A stretch of 14,762 nt of DNA from a virus: UHGV virus genome UHGV-0206032; one strand, 5' to 3'. A model generated the notes under the pieces. It made no database searches. It saw nothing but the letters and a program-made list of their open reading frames with translations, and was not told where the DNA came from. Position 1 is the stretch's first letter; each line of letters opens with the position of its first letter. The translations under genes and the position numbers were made by a program. Of this stretch, positions 1 to 14,762 are shown in pieces.

Positions 1-1263
1 ATGGCGGTCTCACACGGCTCCTTGCCATTCAAAGAACAGATCGACTATTTCCGTGGCAAGGTCGACCTACCGACTCGCGCATGGACTGACGCTTACGCTG
101 CTGAACACGACTATGCCTTTGTCGTGGCGGGTGCTGCGAAGCGGGATCTGCTGACCGACCTGCGGGGTGCCGTAGAGAAGTCCATCGCCAGCGGCACCAC
201 CCTGGAGCAGTTCCGCAAAGACTTTGACCAGGTCGTCGGTAAACACGGCTGGCAGTACCAGGGCGAGCGCGGTTGGCGCACCAATGTCATCTGGGAGACC
301 AACCTGCGCCAGTCGTACAACGCGGGCCGCGAAGCCCAAATGGCTGACCCGGAGTTGCGCAAACGCCGTCCCTATGCGGTCTATCGTCATGGCGACAGCG
401 CGCACCCACGGCCAATGCACTTGTCCTGGAACGGCATCACGCTGCCGCTCGATGACCCCTGGTGGGCAACTCATACCCCGCAAAACGGCTGGGGCTGTAA
501 GTGCAAAAAATTCATGCTCTCGGCCAGGGACGTTGAACGCCAAGGGCTGACGATTGGTCCGGCACCGGCCACTGAATGGGAAGATCGGGTCATTGGCCAG
601 AACAGTCCTGACGGACCACGCACAGTGCGAGTGCCCAAGGGCATTGATCCAGGCTTTGAATATGCACCTGGTCAATCACGCCTGACGAACTCCGTGCCCC
701 AGCTGCGCACCCGCGACTTGATACCAGCACCATCAGCAGCTCCGGTACCGGCAATAGGTTTACCCAACCGTCAGCCCACCGGTCCTTTGCCGCAACCTCG
801 ACAAATCCCAGCAAAGCGCCTGCTCCCGGCCAAAGTGTCTGCCCCCCAGGCAGTGACTCAGTTCCTGGGCGAGTTCGGTGCCACGGATGCCACTCCGGCT
901 GTGTTCCGTGATGTGACCGGTGATGCCCTGGTCATCGGGCGGGCGATGTTCAGTGATGCCAAAACCGGCGCAATAGCATTGGCCCAACAAGTCAAGGCCC
1001 GCGAGTTACCGTTGTTGGCTGAAGCCATTAAGGCACCTGATGAGATCTGGGCGCGCTTGGAATGGCAGCCAGATCAAGGCAAAGCGGTGTTGCGCCGTCG
1101 TTACCTGGCGCACGTCCAGGTCAAAGGGAGGGCTGATCCAGCTGTTGCTGTATTCGACCAGGGCGCAGATGGCTGGACCGGCGTTACAGGGTTTGTAGAT
1201 GACAGCGAGCAGTACCTTGAGGCATTGCGCCTGGGTGTCCTGCTTTACCGGCGTACCGAATAG
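1..1263 (+). CDS. Phage head morphogenesis protein, MuF (Mu gp30) family, with Pro-rich linker and C-terminal domain
   Basis: 420-aa ORF starting at window position 1. N-terminal ~230 aa resemble the MuF/SPP1 gp7 head morphogenesis domain as I recall it (DYAFVVAGA...DLLTDLR, NVIWETNLRQSYNAGR, PYAVYRHGDSAHPRPMHLSWNG, NGWGCKCK). RBS GGGAG for the next gene overlaps its stop. True start could lie upstream of the window. Confidence 0.8.
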   Translation: MAVSHGSLPFKEQIDYFRGKVDLPTRAWTDAYAAEHDYAFVVAGAAKRDLLTDLRGAVEKSIASGTTLEQFRKDFDQVVGKHGWQYQGERGWRTNVIWETNLRQSYNAGREAQMADPELRKRRPYAVYRHGDSAHPRPMHLSWNGITLPLDDPWWATHTPQNGWGCKCKKFMLSARDVERQGLTIGPAPATEWEDRVIGQNSPDGPRTVRVPKGIDPGFEYAPGQSRLTNSVPQLRTRDLIPAPSAAPVPAIGLPNRQPTGPLPQPRQIPAKRLLPAKVSAPQAVTQFLGEFGATDATPAVFRDVTGDALVIGRAMFSDAKTGAIALAQQVKARELPLLAEAIKAPDEIWARLEWQPDQGKAVLRRRYLAHVQVKGRADPAVAVFDQGADGWTGVTGFVDDSEQYLEALRLGVLLYRRTE

Positions 1264-1272
1264 GGAGCAGAC

Positions 1273-1836
1273 ATGGCTGGTTCAATGCTTGAGGTATCCC
1301 TCGATACAAGCCCAGTAGGCAAGGCTCTGGACGATCTGGTCGAGCGACTAGGCGACCTGACAACGCCGCTCAATGACATCGCCGAATACCTGCACCAATC
1401 GACTGATGACCGCTTTCGTCAGCAGGTAGCCCCGGATGGTTCGCCCTGGGCGCCACTTGCGCCCTCAACTTTGGCACGTAAGAAGGGAGGCCGCATCCTC
1501 CGCGCCAAGGGCACGCTTCAGGACACACTGCGTCACAACGTCAGCAACAATGAGCTGTCTTTCGGTACTGACCGACCATACGGTGCCATTCACCAGCTCG
1601 GTGGTAAGGTCCAGCATGCGGCCAGGTCACAGCAGGTCTACTTCCGTCAGGGTAAAGATGGATCGGTGGGCAACCGCTTTGTGAAGAAGAGCAAGTCCAA
1701 CTTTGCGCAGTGGGTCACCCGTGGTGCGCATGACTCCGAGATCAAGGCAAGACCCTACCTGGGCCTATCATCAGACGACGATATCGAGATACTGGCGATC
1801 ATCCAGGACTACCTTATGGCGCCAATAACAGAGTAA
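1273..1836 (+). CDS. Phage virion morphogenesis protein (Mu G / gp31-like)
   Basis: 187-aa ORF immediately after the MuF gene, with RBS GGGAGCAG 6 nt upstream of ATG. Size and position match Mu G; sequence resembles the virion morphogenesis family from memory. Confidence 0.7.
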   Translation: MAGSMLEVSLDTSPVGKALDDLVERLGDLTTPLNDIAEYLHQSTDDRFRQQVAPDGSPWAPLAPSTLARKKGGRILRAKGTLQDTLRHNVSNNELSFGTDRPYGAIHQLGGKVQHAARSQQVYFRQGKDGSVGNRFVKKSKSNFAQWVTRGAHDSEIKARPYLGLSSDDDIEILAIIQDYLMAPITE

Positions 1837-2087
1837 CGATGCAGAATCACGCAGGCGCTCTGATAGCGGCTTACGGGTACATCCGTCACCTGTGGATTGG
1901 TTAAACAGCGTTAGACCTGCGTTAGATTCAGTTGTAGCGGTATTGATAACGTCTTCGCGAGATATCGTGCGGCCATTCTCTACATATAAAATGAATTCAC
2001 CGCGCACTCATTCTCGTCCTTCCCCAGGCAAAAACCTTGCGCGGTCCTGAAATTACTTTCATTTAAGTACCCGCCGACACTGGCGGC
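1837..2087 (+). promoter_or_regulatory. Intergenic region, candidate internal late promoter/operator (analogous in position to Mu P_I)
   Basis: Only sizeable non-coding gap in the window (251 bp) and AT-richer than its flanks. Contains direct repeat GCGTTAGA x2 (1908-1915, 1919-1926), inverted repeat ACCGCGCA / TGCGCGGT (1999-2006 / 2038-2045) and a GC hairpin CCGCC-N6-GGCGG (2071-2086) abutting the ATG of the next gene. In Mu a C-dependent late promoter sits upstream of gene I. Confidence 0.3.
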
Positions 2088-3062
2088 ATGAAAACTCAAC
2101 TCGCCGCTAACTCAGAAATTTACAGCTCCGTCGAGCTTTCCGATGGGAAGGCCCCCGACTGGGTTGAACTTATCCCCGCAGGTCCGACCGTCACCGGTCG
2201 TGATGGCCGTGCCTGGCTGTTCGATGACATGGCCACCGAACTGGTGCAGTCCAATTTCATCAGTCGAGCAATCGATCTGGTCATTGACCGGGAGCACGCC
2301 ACACAGCTCCGTGCATCCGTTGGCCAGGAAGCCCCAGCCGGTGCCTGGGTCAAACAATTCGAAATCCGCGATGGCGCTCTGTGGGGTCGCGTTGAATGGA
2401 CGCCTCGCGGTGCTGCTCAGGTCGAGGCCAAAGAGTATCGCTACCTATCCCCAGTGTTCGACTACGACCTCGACAACAAACGCATCGTGCGCATGGTCAG
2501 CGCGGCGCTGACCAATATCCCCAACCTCATCATGACCGCCCTCAACCAAGAAGCCCCGGAGAACACACCAGTGAAACTTTCAGCTGCGTTTTTGGCACTG
2601 CTCGGCCTGCCCGACACCGCCACTGAAGAACAGGCCATGTCGGCCGCAAGCCAACTCAAAACTACCGCCCAGGCCGCCAACACCGAACAGCCAAACTTGG
2701 CGCAGTTCGTCCCGCGTGCGGACTACGACGCCCTGGTCGGCCGTGCCACCAACGCCGAACAGGCGCTGGCCAGCCAGAAGAAGGCCGAGCACGACAAGGA
2801 AGTCGATGCAGTCATCATCTCGGCTACTAAGGCCGGAAAGATCACCCCATCCACCGTCGAGTACCACCGCGCCATGTGCCATGACGAAGCGGGCCTGGCG
2901 CGTTTCAAAGATTTTGTGACAGCGGCCCCTGTCGTGGCTGCGGCATCGGAACTGGGCAACAGGAACCCCGCGAATACCGGCACGGCTCTCAACGCCGAGG
3001 AACAAAAGGTCGCATCGTTGCTGGGTATGAGCGAAGCGGAATTCATCAAGGGCAAGGCGTAA
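2088..3062 (+). CDS. Prohead protease / scaffold protein (Mu I / gp32-like)
   Basis: 324-aa ORF. N-terminal half resembles Mu I-type protease (GKAPDWVELIPAGP...GRDGRAWLFDD); C-terminal half is Ala/Gln/Glu-rich and scaffold-like. Lies directly upstream of the major capsid gene, as in Mu. Confidence 0.8.
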   Translation: MKTQLAANSEIYSSVELSDGKAPDWVELIPAGPTVTGRDGRAWLFDDMATELVQSNFISRAIDLVIDREHATQLRASVGQEAPAGAWVKQFEIRDGALWGRVEWTPRGAAQVEAKEYRYLSPVFDYDLDNKRIVRMVSAALTNIPNLIMTALNQEAPENTPVKLSAAFLALLGLPDTATEEQAMSAASQLKTTAQAANTEQPNLAQFVPRADYDALVGRATNAEQALASQKKAEHDKEVDAVIISATKAGKITPSTVEYHRAMCHDEAGLARFKDFVTAAPVVAAASELGNRNPANTGTALNAEEQKVASLLGMSEAEFIKGKA

Positions 3063-3090
3063 CTCCCCCTCTATATAAAGGAAGAGATTC

Positions 3091-3984
3091 ATGATCATTA
3101 ACGCCAGTGTCTTGAACGCGCTGTTTGTTGCGTACAAGGCCGAGTTCCAAAACGCGCAGGCCGCGACACCGACCGACTGGAAGCGTATCGCCACGCCGGT
3201 CCCGTCCTCATCGGCCAGCAATACCTATGGCTGGCTGGGTCAGTTCCCGATGTTCCGTGAGTGGATCGGCGACCGTGTTCTCAAAAACATGGCAGCGCAT
3301 GGCTACTCCATCACCAACAAGAAGTTTGAGTCCTCGGTGGGTGTCCCACGTGATGCCATCGAAGACGACGAGATCGGCGTTTATAAGCCGCTGTTTGCCG
3401 AAATGGGGCGTGCTTCCAGTGCGCACCCGGACGAGCTGGTATTCGCGCTGCTCAAAGCGGGCTTGACCACCACCTGTTACGACGGCCAGTACTTCTTCGA
3501 TACTGATCATCCGGTCTACCCGTCGACCGATGCGTCTGGCACGGCGGTTTCCGTCAGCAACTATCAAGACGGTACAGGCCCGGCCTGGTATCTGCTCGAT
3601 GTCAGCCGCGCCCTGAAACCCATCATCTTTCAGAACCGTCGCAACTACGATCTGAAAGCGATGACCGCAATGGACGACGAAAGCGTATTCATGCGCGACG
3701 AATACCGCTATGGCGTGGATGCCCGGGTGAACGTCGGCTTCGGCTTCTGGCAGTTCGCTTACTGCTCAAAAGCCCCACTGACCGCCGAGAATTACGGCCT
3801 GGCTCGCGCAGCCATGAAGAACTTCCAGGCCGATGGCGGTCGCCCTTTGGGCATCAACCCCGGCCTCCTGGTTGTTCCATCCCAACTGGAAGGCGCTGCT
3901 CGCAAGATCCTGGTCAAGGATGCGGACAACGGCAACGAATGGGCAGGCACCGCCGAAGTACTTGCACCGGCCTGGCTGGGCTAA
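3091..3984 (+). CDS. Major capsid (head) protein, Mu T / gp34-like
   Basis: 297-aa ORF with strong RBS AGGAAGAG upstream. Size and position after the protease/scaffold gene match Mu T; sequence is consistent with the Mu-like major head subunit family from memory. Confidence 0.8.
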   Translation: MIINASVLNALFVAYKAEFQNAQAATPTDWKRIATPVPSSSASNTYGWLGQFPMFREWIGDRVLKNMAAHGYSITNKKFESSVGVPRDAIEDDEIGVYKPLFAEMGRASSAHPDELVFALLKAGLTTTCYDGQYFFDTDHPVYPSTDASGTAVSVSNYQDGTGPAWYLLDVSRALKPIIFQNRRNYDLKAMTAMDDESVFMRDEYRYGVDARVNVGFGFWQFAYCSKAPLTAENYGLARAAMKNFQADGGRPLGINPGLLVVPSQLEGAARKILVKDADNGNEWAGTAEVLAPAWLG

Positions 3985-3993
3985 GGGGGCGTC

Positions 3994-4548
3994 ATGACCA
4001 TTGTGATCACCTCGAAACATGACGGTTTTCGCCGCTGTGGCATCGCCCACTCCAGCGCGGCCGCGCGTTACCCGGATGACTTCTTTTCGGAAGCGCAGTT
4101 GCGGGCTCTGTCAAAAGAGCCTCAGTTGATCCTCGCTTATGAGGAGGATGAATTCGACCAGGTACAGGACCGCCGCGATGAAAACCTCCAGGAAGTCGAT
4201 GTATCGAAAGCGGCCGGCACCTCTGAAAGTACCTTGCAGGGCTTGGGTCAGACAGACCCTGCGGCAGTGGGTGACGCTGGGCTTAACCTCCAGCACGGAG
4301 CCAGCCATGGGCTTGATTTGCCGCAGGTAGGTGGTGTTGTTTCGGCAGATGAGGTCAAGCCTGAGCCAGACCTTGAGGCACTTTGGATCGCCGCGCTCCT
4401 GGAAGACGAACAACGGGAAGCGGCCAAACTGAACGCAGAGACCGAAACGCTTTGGGATGAAGCGATTGCGGAGGATGTACTGCGGGAGGTGGCCAAAGAA
4501 AAGGCGGCAAAGGCACCAGCAAAGCCTAAAAAGGCAGCGGGTAAATGA
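3994..4548 (+). CDS. Mu gp35 / FluMu-like small head-associated protein with acidic middle and Lys/Ala-rich tail
   Basis: 184-aa ORF with RBS AAGGGGG. N-terminal MTIVITSKHDGFRRCGIAH motif resembles the FluMu/Mu gp35 N-terminal domain; middle is strongly acidic; C-terminus is KEKAAKAPAKPKKAAGK. Stop overlaps the next start (ATGA). Confidence 0.5.
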   Translation: MTIVITSKHDGFRRCGIAHSSAAARYPDDFFSEAQLRALSKEPQLILAYEEDEFDQVQDRRDENLQEVDVSKAAGTSESTLQGLGQTDPAAVGDAGLNLQHGASHGLDLPQVGGVVSADEVKPEPDLEALWIAALLEDEQREAAKLNAETETLWDEAIAEDVLREVAKEKAAKAPAKPKKAAGK

Positions 4549-5036
4549 ACCTCTCACTGCCGTCCGCCAGCCAGCTCCTGGTCCGCTTTGGCCCTCGTGA
4601 TATCACCGAGGTTGCAGTCGCGGATACCGACAGGGTCATCGAGCCCGAGCTGCTGGTAGCCGCTGCCGCAGGCAAGCCATTGGATGACTGGTCTGCGGAA
4701 GATGTGGCCATCGCCGTCATGGCGTTGGCCAGGATCGCTGACGCGGTCACTCGGTCGCGTAGTGAGGTTTCGTTTTACCTGCGGTTCCGTGCGGCTGGCG
4801 AAGATGCTCCCGAATGGGTCACCGATGACCTGGCCGAGATCGCTCGCTACCACCTGTACGACGATGCCGGAAAGGAAGAGTCGACTGTGCGGGTGCTCTA
4901 CAAGGACGTGATAAAGCGCCTTGAAACTCTGGCCAAGGAAGACAAGGAGCGTGGAGCCGCCGAGGCAGGCCGGTCGGGCATGCAGCTCACCAGTCAGCCA
5001 CGACTAATGTCTCGCACCACCTTGAGGTCGCTCTGA
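4545..5036 (+). CDS. Head-tail joining / head completion protein (Mu gp36-like, DUF1320-type)
   Basis: 163-aa ORF, ATGA-coupled to the upstream gene and TGATG-coupled to the downstream gene. N-terminus (LLVRFGPRDITEVA) resembles the gp36-family start motif; position matches Mu J/gp36. Confidence 0.5.
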   Translation: MNLSLPSASQLLVRFGPRDITEVAVADTDRVIEPELLVAAAAGKPLDDWSAEDVAIAVMALARIADAVTRSRSEVSFYLRFRAAGEDAPEWVTDDLAEIARYHLYDDAGKEESTVRVLYKDVIKRLETLAKEDKERGAAEAGRSGMQLTSQPRLMSRTTLRSL

Positions 5037-5602
5037 TGTTGGGCGAGCTGGAAGACCTGATCGAGGCGCGCCTGAAGGAACTGACGGCCAAGATCCCGCG
5101 CCTGGCCGTGGAAAGCTACGGCGGTGAATTGAGCGACCCGGACCTGTTGCCTGGGTTGCTCAAACGTTGCCCGGCTGTACTGGTCATGGTGCCCAAGGTG
5201 ACGTTTCAGCGGCGTAGTCAAAATCGCTACACGGTGCCGATTACCTTCCGCCTGGTCATTGCCACACGTCACCCCCGTGGCGAACGGGAAACCCGGCGGG
5301 GTAGCGGCCCAAAGGACGTGGGTAGCTACGACCTATGGGAAGCCTGCATGCATCAACTGGTGGAATGGCAGCCTTGGGTAGATCGTGCAGCTATTCGTCC
5401 GACCGAGCTTTCCAACCTGGTCAACGGCAAGTTGGCCAGCGACCACCTCTCAGTCCTGGGGCAATCGTTCGTCATCGAACTGGATTGGGAAAAACCGAAA
5501 GAGGCTCTGCCTGACTTCCTGGGCGTCAGCTTGGAATACCACACCCCATCGGATAACCCCGAGCCGGTGGCCACCGACATCATCGAACTGAGGGACGTGT
5601 AA
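5036..5602 (+). CDS. Head-tail joining protein (Mu gp37-like, DUF1834-type)
   Basis: 188-aa ORF, start overlaps the previous stop (TGATG). Position and size match Mu gp37/K analogues. Confidence 0.5.
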   Translation: MLGELEDLIEARLKELTAKIPRLAVESYGGELSDPDLLPGLLKRCPAVLVMVPKVTFQRRSQNRYTVPITFRLVIATRHPRGERETRRGSGPKDVGSYDLWEACMHQLVEWQPWVDRAAIRPTELSNLVNGKLASDHLSVLGQSFVIELDWEKPKEALPDFLGVSLEYHTPSDNPEPVATDIIELRDV

Positions 5603-5793
5603 TGCACGTTATCGCCGCACCTGGTCATCGGGTGCCCATGGATGAAGATCCGTACAAGTACATCGAAGAGGCCGAGTCCGTCGACGTGCCAGATACCTCC
5701 TACTACCGACGCCGCTTGGCGGCTGGTGAACTGCTCGCCGCGAAGAAACCACGCGGCAGTGCCAAACAACTCGCACAGGAATCCGCTGAATGA
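5602..5793 (+). CDS. Small tail-associated protein (DUF2635-like, Mu gp38 position)
   Basis: 63-aa ORF, TAATG-coupled upstream and ATGA-coupled to the sheath gene. Motifs APGHRVPMDEDP and DTSYYRRRL resemble the small conserved protein found just upstream of sheath genes. Confidence 0.45.
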   Translation: MHVIAAPGHRVPMDEDPYKYIEEAESVDVPDTSYYRRRLAAGELLAAKKPRGSAKQLAQESAE

Positions 5794-6890
5794 GCATTTC
5801 CTTTGACACCATCCCGGCGTCGATTCGCAAGCCGGGCGTTTACATTGAGTTCAACACCAGCCTGGCGGTACGGACGCTGCCCACCAACAAGCAGAGTGTC
5901 TGCCTGATCGTGCCCCTGGGCGTCGATGCTACTGTTGCGGCCAACGTGCCTACGCCGTTCTACAGCGCAGCCGAGGCCAAAGCCTTGTTCGGCGGGACAG
6001 TGGCCGAGGAAATGGCGGACGCGTTTATCACCGCCTATCGGTACGCCTCCATCTCGGCCGTAGGTGTGGTGGTCGAGGGCGAAACAGAACCCGACATCAA
6101 GGCTGCTTTGGACTCGACCGCCATGGGTGGTTTCACCATCCTGGTGCCTGCCTGGTTTAGCCAGGTCGCACTCACTGCATTGCGCACGCACATCCAGACC
6201 TACACCAGTTCGATGGAGCAACAGGGAATCATCGGTGTGGCGGCGCTGACCAGCACCTTGTCGGCCGCGACCACGTTGGCCACGTCGCTGAACTCCGGCG
6301 CAATCAGCTTGGCAGTCCTGCCGGGAACTGCATCGACTGCGCGCCAGGTAGCCGCCGCGTATGCCGCGATGATCGCCTCGGAAGAAGATCCAGCGCGGCC
6401 GCTGAATACCCTGGTGTTGACTGGTATCAAGGTTCCGCCGGTCACTCAGCGTCTCGGTCGTACAGAGCAGGAAACGGCGCTGGCCAATGGTGTCACGCCG
6501 CTGGAGGTTGCGGCCGGTGATGTCATCCAGATCGTCCGTGCAGTGACCACCTACACCAAGTCTGCTGCTGGTGCCACGGACGTGTCGCTGCTGGATTTGA
6601 CCACTATCCGCACTCTGTATTACGTGCGTGTGGCCATTCGTGACCGCATCCGGCTGCGCTTCCCACGCTCGAAACTCTCCAGCAAGACGCCTGCGGCTGT
6701 TCGTGGCGAGATCCTGGACGTACTCAAGAAGCTGGAAGAGTTGGAAATCGTCGAAGAGGTGGACGCCAACGCCGATGGTCTGGTGGTTGAGCGTTCACTC
6801 CAGGACGTAAACCGCCTCAATGCAACCATTCCTGTCGATGTAGTCAACGGCCTGCATGTGTTCGCCGGTCGCATTGACCTGCTCCTGTAA
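5790..6890 (+). CDS. Tail sheath protein (Mu L-like)
   Basis: 366-aa ORF. N-terminus (TIPASIRKPGVYIEFNTSLA) matches the characteristic sheath N-terminal pattern; followed by a ~120-aa tube gene, as expected for contractile tails. Confidence 0.7.
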   Translation: MSISFDTIPASIRKPGVYIEFNTSLAVRTLPTNKQSVCLIVPLGVDATVAANVPTPFYSAAEAKALFGGTVAEEMADAFITAYRYASISAVGVVVEGETEPDIKAALDSTAMGGFTILVPAWFSQVALTALRTHIQTYTSSMEQQGIIGVAALTSTLSAATTLATSLNSGAISLAVLPGTASTARQVAAAYAAMIASEEDPARPLNTLVLTGIKVPPVTQRLGRTEQETALANGVTPLEVAAGDVIQIVRAVTTYTKSAAGATDVSLLDLTTIRTLYYVRVAIRDRIRLRFPRSKLSSKTPAAVRGEILDVLKKLEELEIVEEVDANADGLVVERSLQDVNRLNATIPVDVVNGLHVFAGRIDLLL

Positions 6891-6903
6891 GAGGTGATTT
6901 TAG

Positions 6904-7275
6904 ATGGCTGATAACTACGTAGGGCAGATCGTCCTGGAGATCAACGGCACCGATTATGAGGTGACGAGCGTTGAGCCGAGCCTTAAGACCGGGCGTAAGG
7001 TCGTCAAGACGATGAACCGCACAGGCCGTCCCACCGGCACGGCAAAAGGTATTGAAGAGCACGAGCTGAAAATCTCGGTGCCAATTCCGAAGACTGGCGA
7101 GCCAGACTGGCGGGCACTGATGGACGCCAAGCTGACCATCTATCCGCAGGACGGTGGCAGTAAGCGCCAGACCTGGACCGGGTGTTCTTTGATGGAGATG
7201 GGCAGTAAGTACCAGGTAGAGGGTGAAGCCACCCGCGACCTGACCATCGCCGCCCTCAACTACTACCCGGAGTGA
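6904..7275 (+). CDS. Tail tube protein (Mu M-like)
   Basis: 123-aa ORF with RBS AGAGGTGA. Size and position (sheath -> tube -> chaperone -> tape measure) match tail tube proteins. Confidence 0.65.
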   Translation: MADNYVGQIVLEINGTDYEVTSVEPSLKTGRKVVKTMNRTGRPTGTAKGIEEHELKISVPIPKTGEPDWRALMDAKLTIYPQDGGSKRQTWTGCSLMEMGSKYQVEGEATRDLTIAALNYYPE

Positions 7276-7279
7276 TGCA

Positions 7280-7666
7280 ATGACCGAGCAATCAAGCAAG
7301 CGCTGGGAAGGACTGAGCATCACCCGCGAACTCAAAATGGGTGTCTATTACTCCGGCCTGCGCCACAAGACCTTCACTTTGCGTGTTCCTGTTGCGGGCG
7401 ACCTGGTCGCCGCGCAGGAGCTGCACCCAGGCGCACCATTTCAACTGATCACCCTGGAGGTTTATCGCCGTCAGTTGTTGTCCCTGGGCGAGATTCCCGC
7501 CGACGCGTTGACCACTGAATTGCTCCTGGGCGAACTCACCGAGAGCGACCTGGCCATCATTGCCGATGCCGATGCCGAGCTGGAAAAAAAGCTCGCGCCG
7601 CCGAGCGCGGCAACGTCGACTGGCGACGAATCGAACACGCCTTCGTCCGCCACGGCTACCGGCTAG
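7280..7666 (+). CDS. Tail assembly chaperone (short, in-frame product)
   Basis: 128-aa ORF between tube and tape measure genes. Contains an in-frame A_AAA_AAG slippery heptamer at 7585-7591. Confidence 0.6.
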   Translation: MTEQSSKRWEGLSITRELKMGVYYSGLRHKTFTLRVPVAGDLVAAQELHPGAPFQLITLEVYRRQLLSLGEIPADALTTELLLGELTESDLAIIADADAELEKKLAPPSAATSTGDESNTPSSATATG

Positions 7667-7788
7667 AAGAGCTTCGCCAGATGACCAGGGCCGAGATCGA
7701 TGCACGTATTGATCTGATCATCGGCAAGGTCAAAGGCACCCGCTATGTCAGTCAGCGCCAGCGCAAGGCGTTGCCTAAACCCAAATGA
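7280..7788 (+). CDS. Tail assembly chaperone, predicted -1 frameshift fusion product (slip at 7585-7591)
   Basis: After a -1 slip on A_AAA_AAG the -1 frame stays open for 65 codons (ARAAERGNVDWRRIEHAFVRHGYRLEELRQMTRAEIDARIDLIIGKVKGTRYVSQRQRKALPKPK) to TGA at 7786-7788, ending just before the tape measure start. Mirrors the conserved G/GT-type frameshift of long-tailed phages. Confidence 0.5.
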
Positions 7789-7843
7789 CAGGCTCGACAC
7801 CGGGCCTTTCCTGTCCCTGTAAGTCCGTTTCCGGGAGTTATCC

Positions 7844-10261
7844 ATGTCCGATCTGCGCGTCGCGCTTCGTTTCCAGGCCCATGCGGGTAACAGTCGGCGC
7901 GAGATCGAGCAGATCAACCGTGACCTGCGCAAGGCTGGCAAGGAGGGCGCCAAGGCTCTGGCCGATGAAAGCTGGAAAGCGTCTTCTGCCATCACCAAGG
8001 TCGGCCAGGTCGGGGCCAACAGCTATAAAGTGATCCGTGCAGCAATGCGCGAAACCGCTACGGCTGGTTCCGGCACGCGCATCGAGGTCAGCAAGACAAC
8101 TGCTGAACTCAAGGATATGGCCAATGCAGCTCGCAAGGCTGCACGAGATGCGAAAACTGAGTTGCAGAACACCGACCGGCAAGGCGTGCAGCCCTTGCGC
8201 CAGAGCGTTGATAAGACAGAGGCATCCTTCCGGCGCATGGCACAGAACAGCGGTCGCAGCCTGCGAACTTTGAAAACCATCGCTATGGGTGTGCGTCAGG
8301 AGTTTGATCGCATCAAGGGGCTGGGCGGGAGCATGCAAGGGAAACTGGCTGGGTTAGGTGTGGGAGTCGGTGTTGTGTCGGGCGTGACATCAAGTGCAAA
8401 GCTGGACCGCCAGCTTATACGTACTCAACAAACTGCGGGCATGTCAGTTGAACAGCGTGAAGAATGGCGTGGTGAACAGTGGCGCTTAGCAAAAACCTAC
8501 GGCATTGAACGTGAGCAAGTTCAAACAGGGTTCGATACCTTGATCGCAAGTGGTATGTCCTACGATAAAGCGAAAGCAAGTTCCGGAGCTATCGCTCAAG
8601 CAACAGCAGTTACGGGGGCTGACTCCGGGATTCTGGCTAAAGCGCTTATAACTGGTGCGAGCGCTTTTGATATTGACCTCTCTAAGCCCAACGCTGCTGT
8701 AGACATCTTGCAAAAAATGATCGTTGCTGGCCGTCTGGGTAACGCTGAACTTGAGAATCTATCAAGCATTTTCCCTAAAGTGGGGCAGGACGCCAAGTCG
8801 GCGGGCATGTCCATGGCTCAGTCTCTTTCGTTTGTTGAAACGTTATCTCTTATTGAACTTGAACCTGATCGTCTAGGAACTCTGGCGCAATCGACTTTGC
8901 GTGCATTCAACAATGGTAATTACCGCAAGAGCGTTACGAAAAATACAGGCGTCGATTTTTTCAACAAGGATAAGTCTGTAAGGAATACTCAGGATGTATT
9001 TCTTGACCTACAGCACAAATACAAATCACTTAAGAATGACAAAGATCGCGCTCGATTCATGGATGTGGTGTTTGGAAAGATGGACCAGGACACGCAAAAG
9101 GGAGTTAAGGCGTTCTTGACTGGTGATCGACTGGAGAACTTTGCTAAAAGTACCGGGGACATTAATAACGCCAAAGGCGTTATTGAAAAGGATCTGGCCG
9201 ATAACATGAGCAGTTCGACTGCTGTCGGTTCTCGAATGAAGGCCAGCCTTGGCGAAGCCATCGACCGTATGGCGAAGCCATTGAACAAAGGCTTTGCAGA
9301 CCTCGGCAGTTACCTGCTCGATGATCTGAATTTGTCAGGCGAGCAAATGCTGGTCGGTGGTGCCGCACTGGGAGTCGGTGGCTACTACGCCGGACGCGGT
9401 GCCAAAGCAGGCGCAGGCGCTTTGCTCAACAAGTTTATGGGTGGACCGGAGACCTTGAAAAACATCGCCGTGGGCAAGGTGTTGGAAGAAGCCACGGGCG
9501 TTACATCTGTTTTCGTCACCAACTGGCCTGCTGGTGCGCCCCTCGGTATTGGCAGCGGTCCCGACCTGCCCAATGGTCCCAGTTCCGGTAAAGGCAACGG
9601 GAAGCCAGGTGGTTTTATCACCCCGTGGCTAGCACCCTTGGCTTTAGCTGCGACGGCCACGCAGATCGGCGGGGCAAGTGCGACGGCTACAGACGAAGGT
9701 CGCCTCGATGCTGCCCAGCGCAGCAAGCTGCTTAACGATGATCAGCGAACGTACCAGGCGTCCTTCTACCGCAACCGCATGGCCCTGGCCGACAGGAATC
9801 CCAGCCAGTCATCTGATTGGCTGTCCTCAGAGGCCCAACGCCTGGCGCACCATGAAACCGGCCTGACAGCTGCGGGCCTGCCCATCGATGGCGCAAACAC
9901 CTGGGCCCAAGGCATCGCCGGTCGTGCCCTGGCTGCGGGTGCCAACACCTTCACAGCACAACAACGCCTGCGGGACATGATGGCGCAATCCGGTACCAGC
10001 CAGCCTTCGACCTGGTTAGCCGACCAGGCGCAACGCCTGGCTAACCCGTTGTCGGGCGGCAGCATGGCTGGCTTTCCTGGAATTGCCGGCAACGGCTCCG
10101 CACCAGGTGCAATCGGTGCCAATCCTGCCGCACAAGCCGCCGAGGAACGCCTCCGCTCCTTGCTCACCCAGCCGCTGATCATTGAAGTGCGTACTGACTC
10201 ACGGATGATCCAGGCCGAGGTTGAGCGTCGAACTGATATTCAGATGAGGCGCGGCGGATGA
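7844..10261 (+). CDS. Tail tape measure protein
   Basis: 805-aa ORF with RBS GGGAG, downstream of the chaperone. Has Gly-rich/hydrophobic stretches, a conserved-looking central core and C-terminal repeats. Stop overlaps the next start (ATGA). Confidence 0.85.
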   Translation: MSDLRVALRFQAHAGNSRREIEQINRDLRKAGKEGAKALADESWKASSAITKVGQVGANSYKVIRAAMRETATAGSGTRIEVSKTTAELKDMANAARKAARDAKTELQNTDRQGVQPLRQSVDKTEASFRRMAQNSGRSLRTLKTIAMGVRQEFDRIKGLGGSMQGKLAGLGVGVGVVSGVTSSAKLDRQLIRTQQTAGMSVEQREEWRGEQWRLAKTYGIEREQVQTGFDTLIASGMSYDKAKASSGAIAQATAVTGADSGILAKALITGASAFDIDLSKPNAAVDILQKMIVAGRLGNAELENLSSIFPKVGQDAKSAGMSMAQSLSFVETLSLIELEPDRLGTLAQSTLRAFNNGNYRKSVTKNTGVDFFNKDKSVRNTQDVFLDLQHKYKSLKNDKDRARFMDVVFGKMDQDTQKGVKAFLTGDRLENFAKSTGDINNAKGVIEKDLADNMSSSTAVGSRMKASLGEAIDRMAKPLNKGFADLGSYLLDDLNLSGEQMLVGGAALGVGGYYAGRGAKAGAGALLNKFMGGPETLKNIAVGKVLEEATGVTSVFVTNWPAGAPLGIGSGPDLPNGPSSGKGNGKPGGFITPWLAPLALAATATQIGGASATATDEGRLDAAQRSKLLNDDQRTYQASFYRNRMALADRNPSQSSDWLSSEAQRLAHHETGLTAAGLPIDGANTWAQGIAGRALAAGANTFTAQQRLRDMMAQSGTSQPSTWLADQAQRLANPLSGGSMAGFPGIAGNGSAPGAIGANPAAQAAEERLRSLLTQPLIIEVRTDSRMIQAEVERRTDIQMRRGG

Positions 10262-11601
10262 GCTGGGCAGAGAACCTGCTGGACGCTTCCTTCCGTGGCG
10301 TCCCGCTCCAAGTAGAAGGCGAAAGCCTACAATGGCAACGCGCCCTGTCTGAGCATGGGACGCCGTTCAAGGATGGCGACCGGGTCAAAGACCTGGGCCG
10401 TGGTGCGCGCCGTATCCCCATGCAAGTAGTGGTGTTCGGCGTCAATTACGAGATCGAACTCCAGAACATCCTCCGTACCTTGAATACACCAGGTACGGGC
10501 GAACTGATCCACCCGATCTACGGCAGCATGAATGTCGTCAGCAGCACCGGCGAGGTAAAGCACAGCGCCGAGCGGCCAGACTATGCCGAGATCAGCATAG
10601 TGTTTGTTGAGGACACGCCCGACGCTCCATTCTTCGACCGGCAGTTTGAATTTGTCGATGTCGGCGTATTGGGGTTGGAGGATGAATACACCTGGCAGGA
10701 TGGCATCTTCGATCTGTTCGGCCGTATTGATTCCCTGGTCGGCGAGATTCAATCGTGGATCGGCGGGGGCTGGGTAGGACTGATCGAAAAGGCCCTGGGC
10801 TTGCCTGGCATTGGCCTGCGCTTGCAACAGCTGCGCTCGCAGATCATGGGTGTGGTGTCCGGCGTCGGGTCGATGGCCAAGCGGCCATCAGGGGCGTTTG
10901 ATCCCCTGGTCGACCTGATGCGCACACCCTCGGAGATCCGAGGCGCCATCCAGGGCAGCACGCCCAGTTCGTCAACGACGCTACTAGCTCGCACTGGCGT
11001 ACCCGTTAGCTTGCCTGGTAATGCCAGCCTGGTGGCGGATGCTGCGCGTGCGGGTACTGGCTTTCTGATAGGTGCCCGACAAGGTGTGGCACCCACCGTC
11101 GGCCTGCTGATCGACGGCGTACCGACCAATGCGGGCAGCGCCCTGGTGCTGCTGCCCGACGGAATGCCGGATGATCCGGTTACCGCTAACGGTTTCGCCC
11201 TGGTCGTCCTGGTCATCACTGAACTGGCACTGGCTCACGCCCAGGCGGTAGCCACCGTCATCGAGGACGAAGCCGATACGCCGACGTTGAGTCCATTAGA
11301 GCTGGAAGGCCTGGTTAATTTGGTGCGCTCGCTGGTGCAGTCGTCCATCCTTCTACAACGTCACCTTTTCGACGTAGAGACCGCACTGCCGATCATTGAT
11401 GCATTGCGCAACGTCGCCGCGTTGATCCAGGCCCGCGCCCGTCAAGTCATTTTGCAAAGTCCTCCGATGCTTGAGCGGGTGGTTGAGACGCCTGCAAGCC
11501 TACATTTGCTGGCTCACCGCTGGTATGGCGGGCCGAGTGGAAGGAAAAGGTCGAAGCGGCCGCTGCTCGCGTCGACAAGATCGCCAAAAAAGGCGGCATG
11601 A
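10258..11601 (+). CDS. DNA circulation protein (Mu N / gp43-like)
   Basis: 447-aa ORF. N-terminus (ASFRGVPLQVEG, LGRGARRIP, GTGELIHPIYGS) matches the DNA circulation protein N-terminal domain as recalled for Mu N. The 3' end is uncertain: its last ~40 codons overlap other frames (see findings). Confidence 0.75.
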   Translation: MSWAENLLDASFRGVPLQVEGESLQWQRALSEHGTPFKDGDRVKDLGRGARRIPMQVVVFGVNYEIELQNILRTLNTPGTGELIHPIYGSMNVVSSTGEVKHSAERPDYAEISIVFVEDTPDAPFFDRQFEFVDVGVLGLEDEYTWQDGIFDLFGRIDSLVGEIQSWIGGGWVGLIEKALGLPGIGLRLQQLRSQIMGVVSGVGSMAKRPSGAFDPLVDLMRTPSEIRGAIQGSTPSSSTTLLARTGVPVSLPGNASLVADAARAGTGFLIGARQGVAPTVGLLIDGVPTNAGSALVLLPDGMPDDPVTANGFALVVLVITELALAHAQAVATVIEDEADTPTLSPLELEGLVNLVRSLVQSSILLQRHLFDVETALPIIDALRNVAALIQARARQVILQSPPMLERVVETPASLHLLAHRWYGGPSGRKRSKRPLLASTRSPKKAA

Positions 11602-11650
11602 GTCAGACAACAGCGGACGAAATCCGGCGCGAGATCCTGGGGATGGCATC

Positions 11651-13204
11651 GTGAGTCTGCCCCTCGTCCTAGACAGCACCGCCACTTTGCTTGCCCCAGC
11701 GGTCTTACTCGACTATCAGAAAGAGTGGATCGGTATACGCGCCCCACTCAAGGTTGGCGAGAAATCCCGGCGTATCGGTCTCACATGGGCTGAGGCGGCA
11801 GACAACGTCCTGGTAGCCGCGTCCGAAAAATCGGCGGGCGGTCAAACTGTCTATTACCTCGGCTACAACCAAGACATGACCGTGGAGTACATCCAGGCAT
11901 GCGCCATGTGGGCGCGGGCCTATAACTACGCGGCCGAGCAAATAGAAGAAGGCATCTGGCCCGACAGCGACCCCGACAAACACATCAAGACCTACACCAT
12001 CGCGTTTCCCAGCGGCCACCGCATCGTCGCGCTGACCAGTCGCCCGTCCAACCTGCGTGGGCGTCAGGGCGTTGTCGTGATCGACGAAGCCGCGTTCCAT
12101 GCGGACTTGGCCGAGCTGCTCAAAGCTGCAATGGCTCTGTTGATCTGGGGCGGTGAAGTCCATGTGATCAGCACCCACGACGGTACGGAGAACCCCTTCA
12201 ACGACCTGGTCAACGAAATCCGGTCAGGCAAGCGCAATGGTGAAGTGTTCCGCTGCACGTTCGGTGAAGCCGTTGCCGATGGTCTGTACAAGCGTGTCTG
12301 CCTGCGTAAAGGCATTGGGTACAGGCTTGAGGATCAAATCGCCTGGGTGAATGACGTATACGACTTCTACGGCGATGCAGCCGACGAAGAATTAGACTGC
12401 GTGCCATCCCAGGGTGGCGGTGCCTTCCTCAGCATGGCCCTGGTTGAGCAGCGCAGTAACCGTGACGTGCCGGTACTGCGCCTGGCATACCCGCAGGGTT
12501 ACGAAACCATCGCCGAACACTTGCGCCTGGCCGAGTCCCTGGAGTGGTGCGAAGAGCATTTGCTCCCGCTGCTTTCGGCCATTCCCCTGGACGTTCAGAG
12601 CTTCTATGGCATGGACTTCGGGCGCTCCGGAGACCTCTCGGTCTTCTGGCCATTGCTCAAAGAGCAGAATCTGCGCAAACGCACGCCCTTTGTGGTCGAG
12701 CTGCGTAACGTCCCGTTCAAGCAACAACTCCAGATTAAGTTTTACATCATTCGTCGCTTACCCAACTTCCTCAAAGGCGCCGACGACGCCAGGGGCAACG
12801 GCTCGCAACTGTCGGAAGACACTGCCGTCGAGTTCGGCTTCAACCGCATCGAGCGTGTGATGCTCACCGAGGGCTGGTATCGCGACAACATGCCGCCGTT
12901 CAAGGCCGCCCTGGAAGATGACACCTTCTACGACATCCCGGCCGACAAGGATGTGGTTAGCGACGTGCGTGCCTTTCGGATGGTCAAGGGCGTGGCTCGC
13001 ATCCCCGAAAAGCGCACCAACGAAAAGGGCGAAAAGTCCGGACCGAAGCGCCATGGCGACGCCGGTATCGCGGCCGTACTGGCCGACTACGCCTCTCGTC
13101 AAGATGTCGAAATCTTCGAATATCACCGCGTCCAGCCAGCCGTCCAGCATGATCGCGAGATCAAGCACGGGGCTGGGTGGCGCTCTCAGAAAGGCATTTG
13201 GTAA
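11651..13204 (+). CDS. Terminase large subunit (Mu gp28-like)
   Basis: Frame of track ORF 11471..13204, but start proposed at GTG 11651 (RBS GGGGA 7 nt upstream); the upstream in-frame part is Arg-rich junk overlapping gene N. Motifs: LLDYQKEW near N-terminus, Walker-B-like VVVIDEAAF, ISTHDG, nuclease-domain-like GMDFGRSGDLSV, C-terminal RHGDAGIAAVLA. Confidence 0.75.
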   Translation: MSLPLVLDSTATLLAPAVLLDYQKEWIGIRAPLKVGEKSRRIGLTWAEAADNVLVAASEKSAGGQTVYYLGYNQDMTVEYIQACAMWARAYNYAAEQIEEGIWPDSDPDKHIKTYTIAFPSGHRIVALTSRPSNLRGRQGVVVIDEAAFHADLAELLKAAMALLIWGGEVHVISTHDGTENPFNDLVNEIRSGKRNGEVFRCTFGEAVADGLYKRVCLRKGIGYRLEDQIAWVNDVYDFYGDAADEELDCVPSQGGGAFLSMALVEQRSNRDVPVLRLAYPQGYETIAEHLRLAESLEWCEEHLLPLLSAIPLDVQSFYGMDFGRSGDLSVFWPLLKEQNLRKRTPFVVELRNVPFKQQLQIKFYIIRRLPNFLKGADDARGNGSQLSEDTAVEFGFNRIERVMLTEGWYRDNMPPFKAALEDDTFYDIPADKDVVSDVRAFRMVKGVARIPEKRTNEKGEKSGPKRHGDAGIAAVLADYASRQDVEIFEYHRVQPAVQHDREIKHGAGWRSQKGIW

Positions 13205-14760
13205 TGGCTGACTCCAAAATCGTCGACCAGTACGGTCGCCCGATCCAGTACGACAAACTCACGGAAGAGCTGGCAGTTGCCCGCACCACCGGCATTCGCC
13301 AGATTTGGCACCAGTCGGTGGCCAACGGCCTGACACCTCAGCGTCTGGCGAGTATTTTGCGGGCCGCTGCCGAGGGATCAGCTAATGACTACCTGACCCT
13401 TGCTGAGGAAATGGAAGAACGGGATCTGCATTATGCCTCGGTGTTAGGCACACGTAAGCTGGCAGTGGCCGGGTTGTCGGTTCGGATCGAGGCAGCCAGC
13501 GACGATCCCGAGGACGTACGCCGGGCCGATCAGCTCAAGGAGCTAGTTGACTCTCCCGAGTTTGGCGAGCTTCAGGCGGACCTGACTGACGCCATGGGCA
13601 AAGGCTATGCCGTCTCCGAAATCATGTGGGACCGTAGTGGTAAGACCTGGAATCCTGAGCGTTTTGAACCCCGCGATCAGCGATTCTTCCAATTTGACCG
13701 TGAAACCGGCCGGGAGCTGCGCCTGCTCGATGAGGCTGATCCGATCAATGGTGTTGCCCTGGCTCCGTACAAATTCATTGTTCATCTGCCGCGTATCCGC
13801 TCTGGTCTTCCGATCCGGGGCGGCCTGGCGCGCCTCGCGGCTGTTGGCTACATGTGCAAGGCCTGGACTTGGAAGGACTGGATGGGCTTTGCTGACATCT
13901 TCGGCATGCCGATGCGCGTCGGCCGGTACGGCGCAGGTGCGAGCAAGGAAGACATCAGCACTCTGATGTCTGCGGTGGCCAACCTGGGCAGCGATGCAGC
14001 AGCGGTGATCCCGGACAGCATGCGCATTGAGTTTACCCAGGCCGCCAATGTGGGCGGTGCCGGGGACTTCTTCAAAGGGCTGGCCGAATGGTGGGATAAA
14101 CAAGTCAGTAAGGCCGTAGTCGGTCAGACCATGTCCACCGACGACGGCTCCAGCCAAGCCCAGGCAACGATTCATAACGAAGTTCGTATAGACCTACTGC
14201 AAGCCGATGCCAAGGCCGAATCCAACACCTTGAACCGCTACTTTGTGCGGCCCTGGTGCGATCTGAACTTTGCACCTGGTCGTCCGTATCCGCGGCTGAT
14301 CATTGATGTGCCAAAGCCAGAAAACACCAAGATCCTGATCGAGGCACTCAAGACACTCGTTCCGTTAGGGTTGAAGGTCGAGCAGTCCGTAATCCGCGAC
14401 AAGCTCAATATCCCGGCTCCGGCCGAGGGTGCCGAACTGCTGGGCATCCCGCCACCCGTTGCCACTCCTGCGCTGGCCCAGGCTACCAACAGCGAGCAAA
14501 AGCCAGCCAAGCCGGTGGTAATGCCGGACATCGTGGATAACCAGGTGCGGACGCTTGAGCGGACTGTGGGGGTCTATATGGATGACATGGTCGAGCAGAT
14601 CAAGGAACTACTCGACACCGTCAGCAGCCTGGAAGAGTTCCGGGATCGGCTGATCGAAGCCTATCCAGCGATGACCACCAGCCAATTGGCCGATGCGATT
14701 GCTGATGGCCTGACGGCCGCCAGCATGGCTGGCCGCGATGACATTCTGAGAGGCCTGTAA
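13204..14760 (+). CDS. Portal protein (Mu gp29-like, DUF935-type)
   Basis: Start proposed at ATG 13204, which overlaps the TerL stop (TAATG), rather than the track's 13177. 518 aa, directly downstream of TerL. N-terminal region (IWHQSVANGLTPQRLASILRAAAEG...LAEEMEERDLHY) resembles the Mu gp29 portal family from memory. Confidence 0.75.
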   Translation: MADSKIVDQYGRPIQYDKLTEELAVARTTGIRQIWHQSVANGLTPQRLASILRAAAEGSANDYLTLAEEMEERDLHYASVLGTRKLAVAGLSVRIEAASDDPEDVRRADQLKELVDSPEFGELQADLTDAMGKGYAVSEIMWDRSGKTWNPERFEPRDQRFFQFDRETGRELRLLDEADPINGVALAPYKFIVHLPRIRSGLPIRGGLARLAAVGYMCKAWTWKDWMGFADIFGMPMRVGRYGAGASKEDISTLMSAVANLGSDAAAVIPDSMRIEFTQAANVGGAGDFFKGLAEWWDKQVSKAVVGQTMSTDDGSSQAQATIHNEVRIDLLQADAKAESNTLNRYFVRPWCDLNFAPGRPYPRLIIDVPKPENTKILIEALKTLVPLGLKVEQSVIRDKLNIPAPAEGAELLGIPPPVATPALAQATNSEQKPAKPVVMPDIVDNQVRTLERTVGVYMDDMVEQIKELLDTVSSLEEFRDRLIEAYPAMTTSQLADAIADGLTAASMAGRDDILRGL

Positions 14761-14762
14761 AC

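What the first reader, a model, noticed from the sequence alone, without database searches (positions are those of the whole stretch)
14700..14762. Window ends and start fit a circular or tandem Mu order (portal -> F)
The portal gene stops 2 nt before the window end and the MuF gene starts at position 1. If joined, the sequence would read portal stop TAA, 'ac', then ATG of F, with AGAGG 9 nt upstream of that ATG as a plausible RBS. That is the canonical Mu adjacency (gp29 portal -> gp30 F). Together with the N -> TerL junction, the window behaves like a rotated ~14.8 kb unit, possibly a tandem repeat or circular contig.
Basis: inference. Interest (0 to 1): 0.4.

Follow-up and report, generated by a model that had tools for sequence, protein, structure and literature searches.

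The report
Rotated sub-genomic Mu-like prophage circle
The window is a cyclically rotated copy of a 14.8-kb piece of an ordinary Mu-like Pseudomonas prophage: its two ends simply meet at the normal portal-to-F gene boundary, and the only abnormal join lies inside the window, so this is a bookkeeping or structural-variant feature rather than new biology.

Summary
The portal ORF stops at 14760, 'ac' follows, F starts at base 1, and AGAGG lies 9 nt upstream of that ATG across the wrap. A 44-mer made from the window's end plus its start occurs exactly in 12 fetched loci (11 distinct public contigs) and in one IMG/VR contig. Re-cut at 11531, the whole window is colinear with a native Pseudomonas prophage contig, with 3 mismatches and one ISL3 insertion in that contig. 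So portal->F is the native adjacency and the window is a cyclic permutation.

The only non-native join is internal, at 11530/11531. Gene N, lacking its last 32 codons, is fused out of frame to the last 40 codons of gp27 (small terminase), which run into TerL. A 5-nt microhomology (ATGGC) sits at the joint.

The unit has no transposase, lysis, baseplate or fibre genes. It is about 40% of the 34-37 kb parent and cannot be a genome.

The most likely origin is a head-to-tail joint, either a tandem duplication or an excised circle, that was assembled as a cycle and rotated to a gene start. An in-vitro or assembly artefact is not excluded. Reads are needed to decide. Interest is low.

The parts
14749..14753 (+). 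AGAGG Shine-Dalgarno-like motif for F, inside the portal 3' end, 9 nt before the F ATG across the wrap point
   Evidence: same sequence and spacing in all native contigs
13204..14760 (+). Portal protein (Mu gp29 family), 518 aa, ATG 13204 overlapping the TerL stop, TAA 14758-14760
   Evidence: Portal_Mu E 9e-106; exact protein on 14 public contigs
14761..14762 (+). 2-nt native portal-F spacer 'ac'; the window's wrap point follows it
1..1263 (+). F protein (Mu gp30 family) with a C-terminal PBECR2 nuclease-like domain, 420 aa
   Evidence: Phage_Mu_F, PBECR2; exact protein always 3 nt after the portal
1273..7666 (+). Mu-order head and tail genes: G-like (1273-1836), I protease/scaffold (2088-3062), T capsid (3091-3984), FluMu_N protein (3994-4548), gp36 (4545-5036), gp37 (5036-5602), DUF2635 (5602-5793), sheath (5790-6890), tube (6904-7275), tail chaperone (7280-7666)
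7844..10261 (+). Tape-measure protein, 805 aa
   Evidence: PhageMin_Tail
10258..11530 (+). N (DNA circularisation protein) codons 1-424 plus 1 nt. The native protein is 456 aa; here the ORF runs on out of frame for 23 codons to a stop at 11599-11601
   Evidence: N homology ends at 11530 in the blastn alignments to L014, L015, L096, L100 and L101 and in the ungapped comparison with L108
11525..11531 (+). Novel head-to-tail joint. ATGGC (11525-11529) is shared by both parents; G at 11530 is the N allele (native gp27 has A); gp27-derived sequence begins at 11531
   Evidence: Random-join simulation gives p about 0.005 for such a microhomology. Logan contig SRR8240678_6337 starts exactly at 11531
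11531..11654 (+). 3' remnant (last 40 codons plus stop) of gp27 / small terminase; the native gene encodes 170 aa
   Evidence: phrog_426 positions 143-183 of 184, E 1e-8; searches show full gp27 (PF11985) in native contigs
11651..13204 (+). Large terminase (Mu gp28-like), GTG start overlapping the gp27 stop, 517 aa
   Evidence: phrog_2 E 7e-31

Best explanation
The window is a circularised and rotated record of a 14,762-bp sub-genomic unit of a Mu-like transposable myovirus prophage of the Pseudomonas fluorescens group. Its end and start meet at the ordinary portal->F boundary because the record was opened at a gene start; the wrap point has no biological meaning. The unit is closed by a single non-native head-to-tail joint at 11530/11531. 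There the distal breakpoint (codon 425 of N) is joined to the proximal breakpoint (codon ~130 of gp27/TerS) next to a 5-nt microhomology (ATGGC). I infer that this joint arose by RecA-independent illegitimate recombination or template switching. For example, a nascent strand ending ...TGGTATGGCG in N could re-prime on ...ATGGCA in gp27 with a terminal G:T. That would give either a tandem duplication of the terS'-to-N' segment inside the prophage or the reciprocal excised circle. An assembly graph then shows a 14.76-kb cycle, which was reported as a circular contig and rotated so that no ORF crosses the ends. The unit is not a genome and has no function of its own. Shown: the cyclic permutation, the native portal->F adjacency, the exact breakpoints, the truncation of both genes and the missing gene set. 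Inferred: that the joint exists in real DNA, how it formed, and how the record was processed.
For: Cyclic permutation: (rotated window colinear with SRR5677835_238, 3 mismatches, broken only by that contig's ISL3). Native order gp27-TerL-portal-F...N-gp44-48-fibres. Breakpoints and microhomology; chance about 0.005. A shared run of 5 nt is too short to create a false join at the k-mer sizes assemblers normally use (own knowledge). The window's exact TerL allele occurs on only one public contig, SRR8240678_6337. That contig is 100% identical to the window and begins exactly at 11531. A second contig of the same run equals window 6886-11469. In a k=31 de Bruijn assembly this start is what a branch at the joint would give (inference). 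Both genes at the joint are destroyed and the fusion is out of frame, and the window is >99.97% identical to native copies, so the event is recent and unselected. Starting at a gene start matches the documented practice of rotating circularised contigs.
Against: No reads or depth could be examined. The joint 38-mer is absent from IMG/VR and from the JGI metagenome contigs. A 58-mer from the N side, ending at the joint's G, is absent from the GTDB representative genomes. The window has no match in PLSDB and only ~85% relatives in INPHARED. The chimeric 447-aa N' protein is not on record in the gene-position index. The joint is therefore seen only in this window. In SRR8240678 the N-side contig stops at 11469, not 11530, so that run holds other branch points. 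The break at 11531 could then reflect a co-occurring related phage or a dead end rather than a second copy in the same genome. The microhomology is offset by one base from the join.
Confidence: 0.6

Rival explanations
1. The joint is not present in cellular DNA. It is an in-vitro chimera (for example template switching during multiple-displacement or rolling-circle amplification, or a ligation or PCR chimera) or a long-read or graph-cycle assembly error. It happened to close a linear fragment of the prophage into a false circle, which a pipeline then rotated.
For: The joint is unique to this window. Short microhomology is also typical of amplification chimeras (own knowledge). The unit is non-functional and breaks two genes. 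The Logan assembly of the run that carries the same alleles is fragmented and shows no gene-bearing contig crossing the joint.
Against: A rare chimera should lose to the native paths in an assembly, so a closed cycle needs the joint at a depth comparable to the unit. A k-mer misjoin is not possible with only 5 shared bases. An independent assembly of SRR8240678 breaks at exactly base 11531, which suggests real alternative predecessors there.
Confidence: 0.3
2. The 14.8-kb circle is a natural, autonomous element: a complete small phage, a satellite, a phage-plasmid or a GTA-like module with this gene order.
For: It closes into a circle whose genes are all on one strand, and it carries terminase, portal, capsid, sheath, tube and tape-measure genes.
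Against: It has no replication, transposition, integration, regulation, lysis, baseplate or fibre genes. Relatives carrying the identical gp27 have MuA, MuB, GemA, Mor, holin and SLT upstream, and close relatives have gp44-48, fibre and chaperone genes downstream. The closure point truncates N and gp27 and leaves no intact small terminase. It is near-identical to the ordinary prophage. Isolated relatives are 31-42 kb.
Confidence: 0.03
3. The source is a linear genome region in which the terS'-TerL-portal block was moved downstream of N' (a non-tandem rearrangement), and the window merely happens to be cut at the portal/F boundary on both sides.
For: The internal order N'-gp27'-TerL-portal is what such a rearrangement would also show.
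Against: Both window ends fall on the two sides of one and the same native dinucleotide boundary. That is expected for a circle or tandem unit and is a very unlikely coincidence for a translocation.
Confidence: 0.03

Closest known systems
Late (packaging, head, tail) region of Mu-like transposable myoviruses: Mu gp27-gp43, FluMu-type prophages, and Pseudomonas fluorescens-group Mu-like prophages
   Same: Same families in the same order: gp27, TerL, Portal_Mu, Mu F, G, I, T, gp36, gp37, sheath, tube, chaperone, tape measure, N. Public contigs carry the identical portal, F, capsid and tape-measure proteins. Relatives that carry the identical gp27 have MuA/MuB/GemA/Mor upstream.
   Different: The window holds only about 40% of the genome, is cyclically permuted, and carries a joint that truncates N and gp27. 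The nearest isolated, named phages are distant: portal <=52% identity to Alteromonadaceae phage B23, Shewanella MuM16-2 and Vibrio phage martha 12B12.
False or sub-genomic 'circular' viral contigs, i.e. graph cycles caused by tandem duplication or rare circles, circularised and rotated by annotation pipelines
   Same: The record starts at a start codon and ends just before it; a single head-to-tail joint closes a fragment far shorter than related genomes. Cenote-Taker 2 circularises contigs with direct terminal repeats and rotates them so that no ORF overlaps the wrap point.
   Different: The provenance of this window is unknown. No terminal repeat is left to inspect, and which pipeline, if any, was used is an inference.
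Microhomology-mediated tandem duplication or deletion circles in bacterial chromosomes (RecA-independent illegitimate recombination, replication template switching)
   Same: Direct-orientation joint of a distal to a proximal breakpoint, 5-nt microhomology, no mobile-element ends at the joint.
   Different: Copy number, the presence of both native flanks and the topology were not observable here.

Membership tests
Mu-like phage late-gene module | Portal_Mu gene immediately followed by the Mu F gene | tested here: met
   (Pfam); searches show the join of window end to window start is the native sequence.
Mu-like phage late-gene module | Intact gp27 (small terminase) upstream of TerL | tested here: not met
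   Only the last 40 codons remain (11531-11654). Native contigs have the 170-aa gene.
Mu-like phage late-gene module | N followed by baseplate genes gp44-gp48 and fibres | tested here: not met
   In the window N is cut at codon 425 and followed by the gp27 remnant. The native order N-gp44-45-46-47-48-fibre is seen.
Mu-like transposable phage (whole genome) | MuA DDE transposase, MuB-like ATPase, Mor/C regulators | tested here: not met
   Absent from the window. Present in 34-37 kb relatives that carry the identical gp27.
Complete circular / terminal-repeat viral genome | Closure point does not interrupt genes, and the gene set and length match relatives | tested here: not met
   The closure truncates two genes. 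The unit is 14.8 kb, against 31-42 kb for isolated relatives and 34-37 kb for parent-type contigs.
Complete circular / terminal-repeat viral genome | Terminal direct repeat or reads spanning the closure | not testable with these tools
   No repeat is left in the window and no reads are available.
Tandem duplication or excised circle by illegitimate recombination | Distal breakpoint joined head-to-tail to the proximal breakpoint, in direct orientation, with microhomology | tested here: met
   microhomology ATGGC, p about 0.005 by simulation.
Tandem duplication or excised circle by illegitimate recombination | Joint and native flanks coexist; depth of unit versus flanks (2:1 for a duplication, much higher for a circle or amplification) | tested here: inconclusive
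   The only hint is that Logan contig SRR8240678_6337, which has the window's private TerL allele, starts exactly at 11531. Depth and reads are not available.
Phage satellite / GTA / R-type tailocin | Own integration, replication or regulatory genes (satellite); conserved chromosomal cluster under host control (GTA); tail with baseplate but no head genes (tailocin) | tested here: not met
   None of these genes is present. Head genes are present and the baseplate is absent.

The most novel reading that the evidence does not exclude
The joint is real and the unit exists in vivo as an extrachromosomal 14.8-kb circle, or as a multi-copy tandem amplification, of Mu-like packaging, head and tail genes. 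It would be thrown off during prophage replication in a Pseudomonas population and be abundant enough to assemble as its own replicon-like cycle.
Probability: 0.2. Interest if true: 0.3.

Novelty: already known. Interest (0 to 1): 0.1.

Why it matters
Mainly as quality control. A contig that closes into a circle and starts neatly at a gene start can still be a 40% fragment of a prophage, so it should not be counted as a complete small phage, plasmid or satellite. If the joint proves real, it is one more example of microhomology-mediated duplication or circle formation inside a prophage. That would be of local interest only.

Tried and rejected
- **Looking for the source record or any second copy of the joint.** The exact joint 38-mer was searched in IMG/VR and JGI metagenomes. 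N-side patterns were searched in GTDB genomes, IMG/VR and JGI. The whole window was compared with PLSDB and INPHARED. The chimeric N' protein was looked up exactly. All were negative.
- **Testing whether native gp27 occurs in run SRR8240678.** The look-up through a cluster id returned only the longest contigs, none from that run.
- **Looking for the native full-length N carrying the window's private allele (T241).** It is not in the collection.
- **Searching papers for the run accessions.** Nothing was found.
- **Extending the IMG/VR contig upstream.** The same locus was returned, and a neighbouring protein gave only a 4.6-kb contig.
- **The private TerL change G->D at 12363** was considered as a possible functional lesion. 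It was rejected because a relative (MT835710) also has D there.
- **Rejected readings:** Mu-end-mediated (transpositional) circle formation, because neither breakpoint is a phage end or an IS end; a k-mer misassembly, because only 5 nt are shared; and longer repeats at the ends or breakpoints, because none were found.

Full report
**1. The observation**

The portal ORF (Portal_Mu, E 9e-106) ends with TAA at 14758-14760. Bases 14761-14762 are 'ac'. The 420-aa MuF/PBECR2 protein starts with ATG at base 1. AGAGG lies at 14749-14753, so it would be 9 nt from that ATG if the ends were joined.

**2. Whether the join is real**

Every public contig that encodes the exact portal protein also encodes the exact F protein 3 nt after the portal's end.

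A 44-mer built from the last 23 and first 21 bases of the window occurs exactly in 12 fetched loci. These are 11 distinct contigs from Logan and JGI, because L001 and L011 are the same contig. The 44-mer also occurs in one IMG/VR contig.

blastn shows window 11525-14762 followed without a gap by window 1 onward in all of these contigs. Re-cutting the window at 11531 gives a sequence that aligns end to end with contig SRR5677835_238: 12,221 nt with 2 mismatches, then 2,549 nt with 1 mismatch. The only break is a 1,419-bp ISL3 insertion in that contig.

The window is therefore an exact cyclic permutation of a contiguous native stretch. The portal->F wrap is simply the native sequence.

**3. The gene content and the parent phage**

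All genes lie on the + strand, in this order:
- F
- G-like morphogenesis protein
- I protease
- T capsid
- FluMu_N protein
- gp36
- gp37
- DUF2635
- sheath
- tube
- tail chaperone
- tape measure
- N
- a gp27 remnant
- TerL
- portal

Relatives are chromosomal prophages of Pseudomonas, mostly the fluorescens group. GC is about 0.59.

Relatives that carry the identical gp27 sit on 34-37 kb contigs. Upstream these have a MuA-type transposase, a MuB-like ATPase, GemA, Mor, holin and SLT. In close relatives N is followed by gp44-gp48, a fibre gene and a fibre chaperone, and then host genes.

The nearest isolated, named phages are distant Mu-like myoviruses of 31-42 kb, with portal identity of 52% or less.

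**4. The one abnormal site**

N homology ends at base 11530. This holds in the blastn alignments to five relatives and in an ungapped comparison with a near-identical native strain. gp27 homology is perfect from 11531 onward. The three sequences are:
- Native N: ...CGCTGGTATGGCG|ACCACACC
- Native gp27: ...AGAAAAAATGGCA|GGCCGAGTGG
- Window: ...CGCTGGTATGGCG|GGCCGAGTGG

Both parents share ATGGC just 5' of the join. A simulation of random joins in this sequence gives about 0.5% for such a coincidence.

N loses its last 32 of 456 codons and runs out of frame for 23 codons. gp27 keeps only its last 40 of 170 codons, which match positions 143-183 of the 184-position small-terminase profile. TerL starts with GTG at 11651 and is intact.

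No longer repeats exist at the ends or at the breakpoints.

**5. Interpretation**

A head-to-tail joint of a distal to a proximal breakpoint is the signature of a tandem duplication or of the reciprocal excised circle. Both give the same joint and the same 14,762-bp cycle in an assembly graph.

Five shared bases are too few for a k-mer misjoin at the k-mer sizes assemblers normally use. The joint k-mers must therefore have been present in reads, whether they arose in vivo or during library preparation.

The window carries private alleles: A at 12363, 10978 and 7978. Its exact TerL is found on a single public contig, SRR8240678_6337. That contig is 100% identical to the window and begins exactly at base 11531. 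Another contig of the same run equals window 6886-11469. In a k=31 de Bruijn assembly, a contig that starts at that base is what two alternative predecessors would produce (native A versus joint G at 11530). This is an inference, and a dead end or a co-occurring relative cannot be excluded.

A record that starts at a start codon fits the practice of circularising contigs and rotating them so that no ORF crosses the wrap point. This practice is documented for Cenote-Taker 2. Other tools do likewise (own knowledge).

**6. Limits**

The joint was found nowhere else. No reads, depth or source metadata were available. In-vivo duplication, circle and in-vitro chimera therefore cannot be separated here.

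An autonomous element is excluded by the gene content and by the two broken genes.

**7. Verdict**

The finding is ordinary: native Mu gene order across a cosmetic wrap point, plus one recent, non-functional structural joint. Interest is low.

Noticed in passing
window 8982-8989; L108 15900-17318: In contig SRR5677835_238 an ISL3-family insertion sequence (433-aa transposase, minus strand) interrupts the tape-measure gene. Window 8982-8989 is duplicated as an 8-bp target repeat. The prophage is therefore being degraded by insertion sequences in some strains.
   Followed up: partly
L004 3-923; starts of L001, L002, L005: In SRR10681903_4258 a DDE_Tnp_1 insertion-sequence fragment lies about 220 nt upstream of Mor. 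Three other native contigs start within about 340 nt upstream of the same 181-aa gene, as if a repeat breaks the assemblies there. In this lineage the early (transposase) region may be separated from the late genes or lost.
   Followed up: no
L117 13616-13834 and 15958-16911; L120 8572-8790 and 10914-11867: Some relatives that carry the identical gp27 have a 72-aa minus-strand ORF (about 280 bp) inserted between portal and F. They also have a HEPN-domain gene between G and I and an extra 131-aa ORF between I and T. These look like moron insertion sites, so the tight portal-F spacing is not universal in the family.
   Followed up: no
window 859-1251 (F residues 287-417): The F protein carries a C-terminal PBECR2 (Barnase/EndoU/ColicinE5-D/RelE-like) nuclease domain, E 8e-26.
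   Followed up: no
window 7681-7788: A 35-aa ORF is called between the tail chaperone (7280-7666) and the tape measure in all native contigs. It may be the frameshift extension of the chaperone.
   Followed up: no
window ~4837-4864; L007 7949-8406: JGI contig 3300076464|Ga0563924_00200 lacks about 28 nt inside gp36, which splits it into 110-aa and 49-aa ORFs.
   Followed up: partly
L006 9438-9564: Logan contig SRR8240692_9470 ends with an inverted copy of window 5011-5137 attached right after window 3128. This is probably an assembly chimera.
   Followed up: no
window 8001-9000: GC drops to 0.52 inside the tape-measure gene, against about 0.60 elsewhere. Several public contigs end in this stretch.
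   Followed up: no
window 7978, 10978, 12363: The window has A at each of these positions where the native contigs compared have G. 12363 gives TerL G->D, against all ten contigs that span it. 10978 gives N A241->T, compared with SRR5677835_238 only. 7978 is synonymous and differs from three contigs. The two contigs of run SRR8240678 are identical to the window over the parts they cover, so they share these alleles. D at the TerL site also occurs in relative MT835710.
   Followed up: yes
protein P0130: A 402-aa member of the N-protein cluster is filed under the eukaryote Diplonema papillatum (EukProt). This is most likely Pseudomonas prophage contamination of that data set.
   Followed up: no
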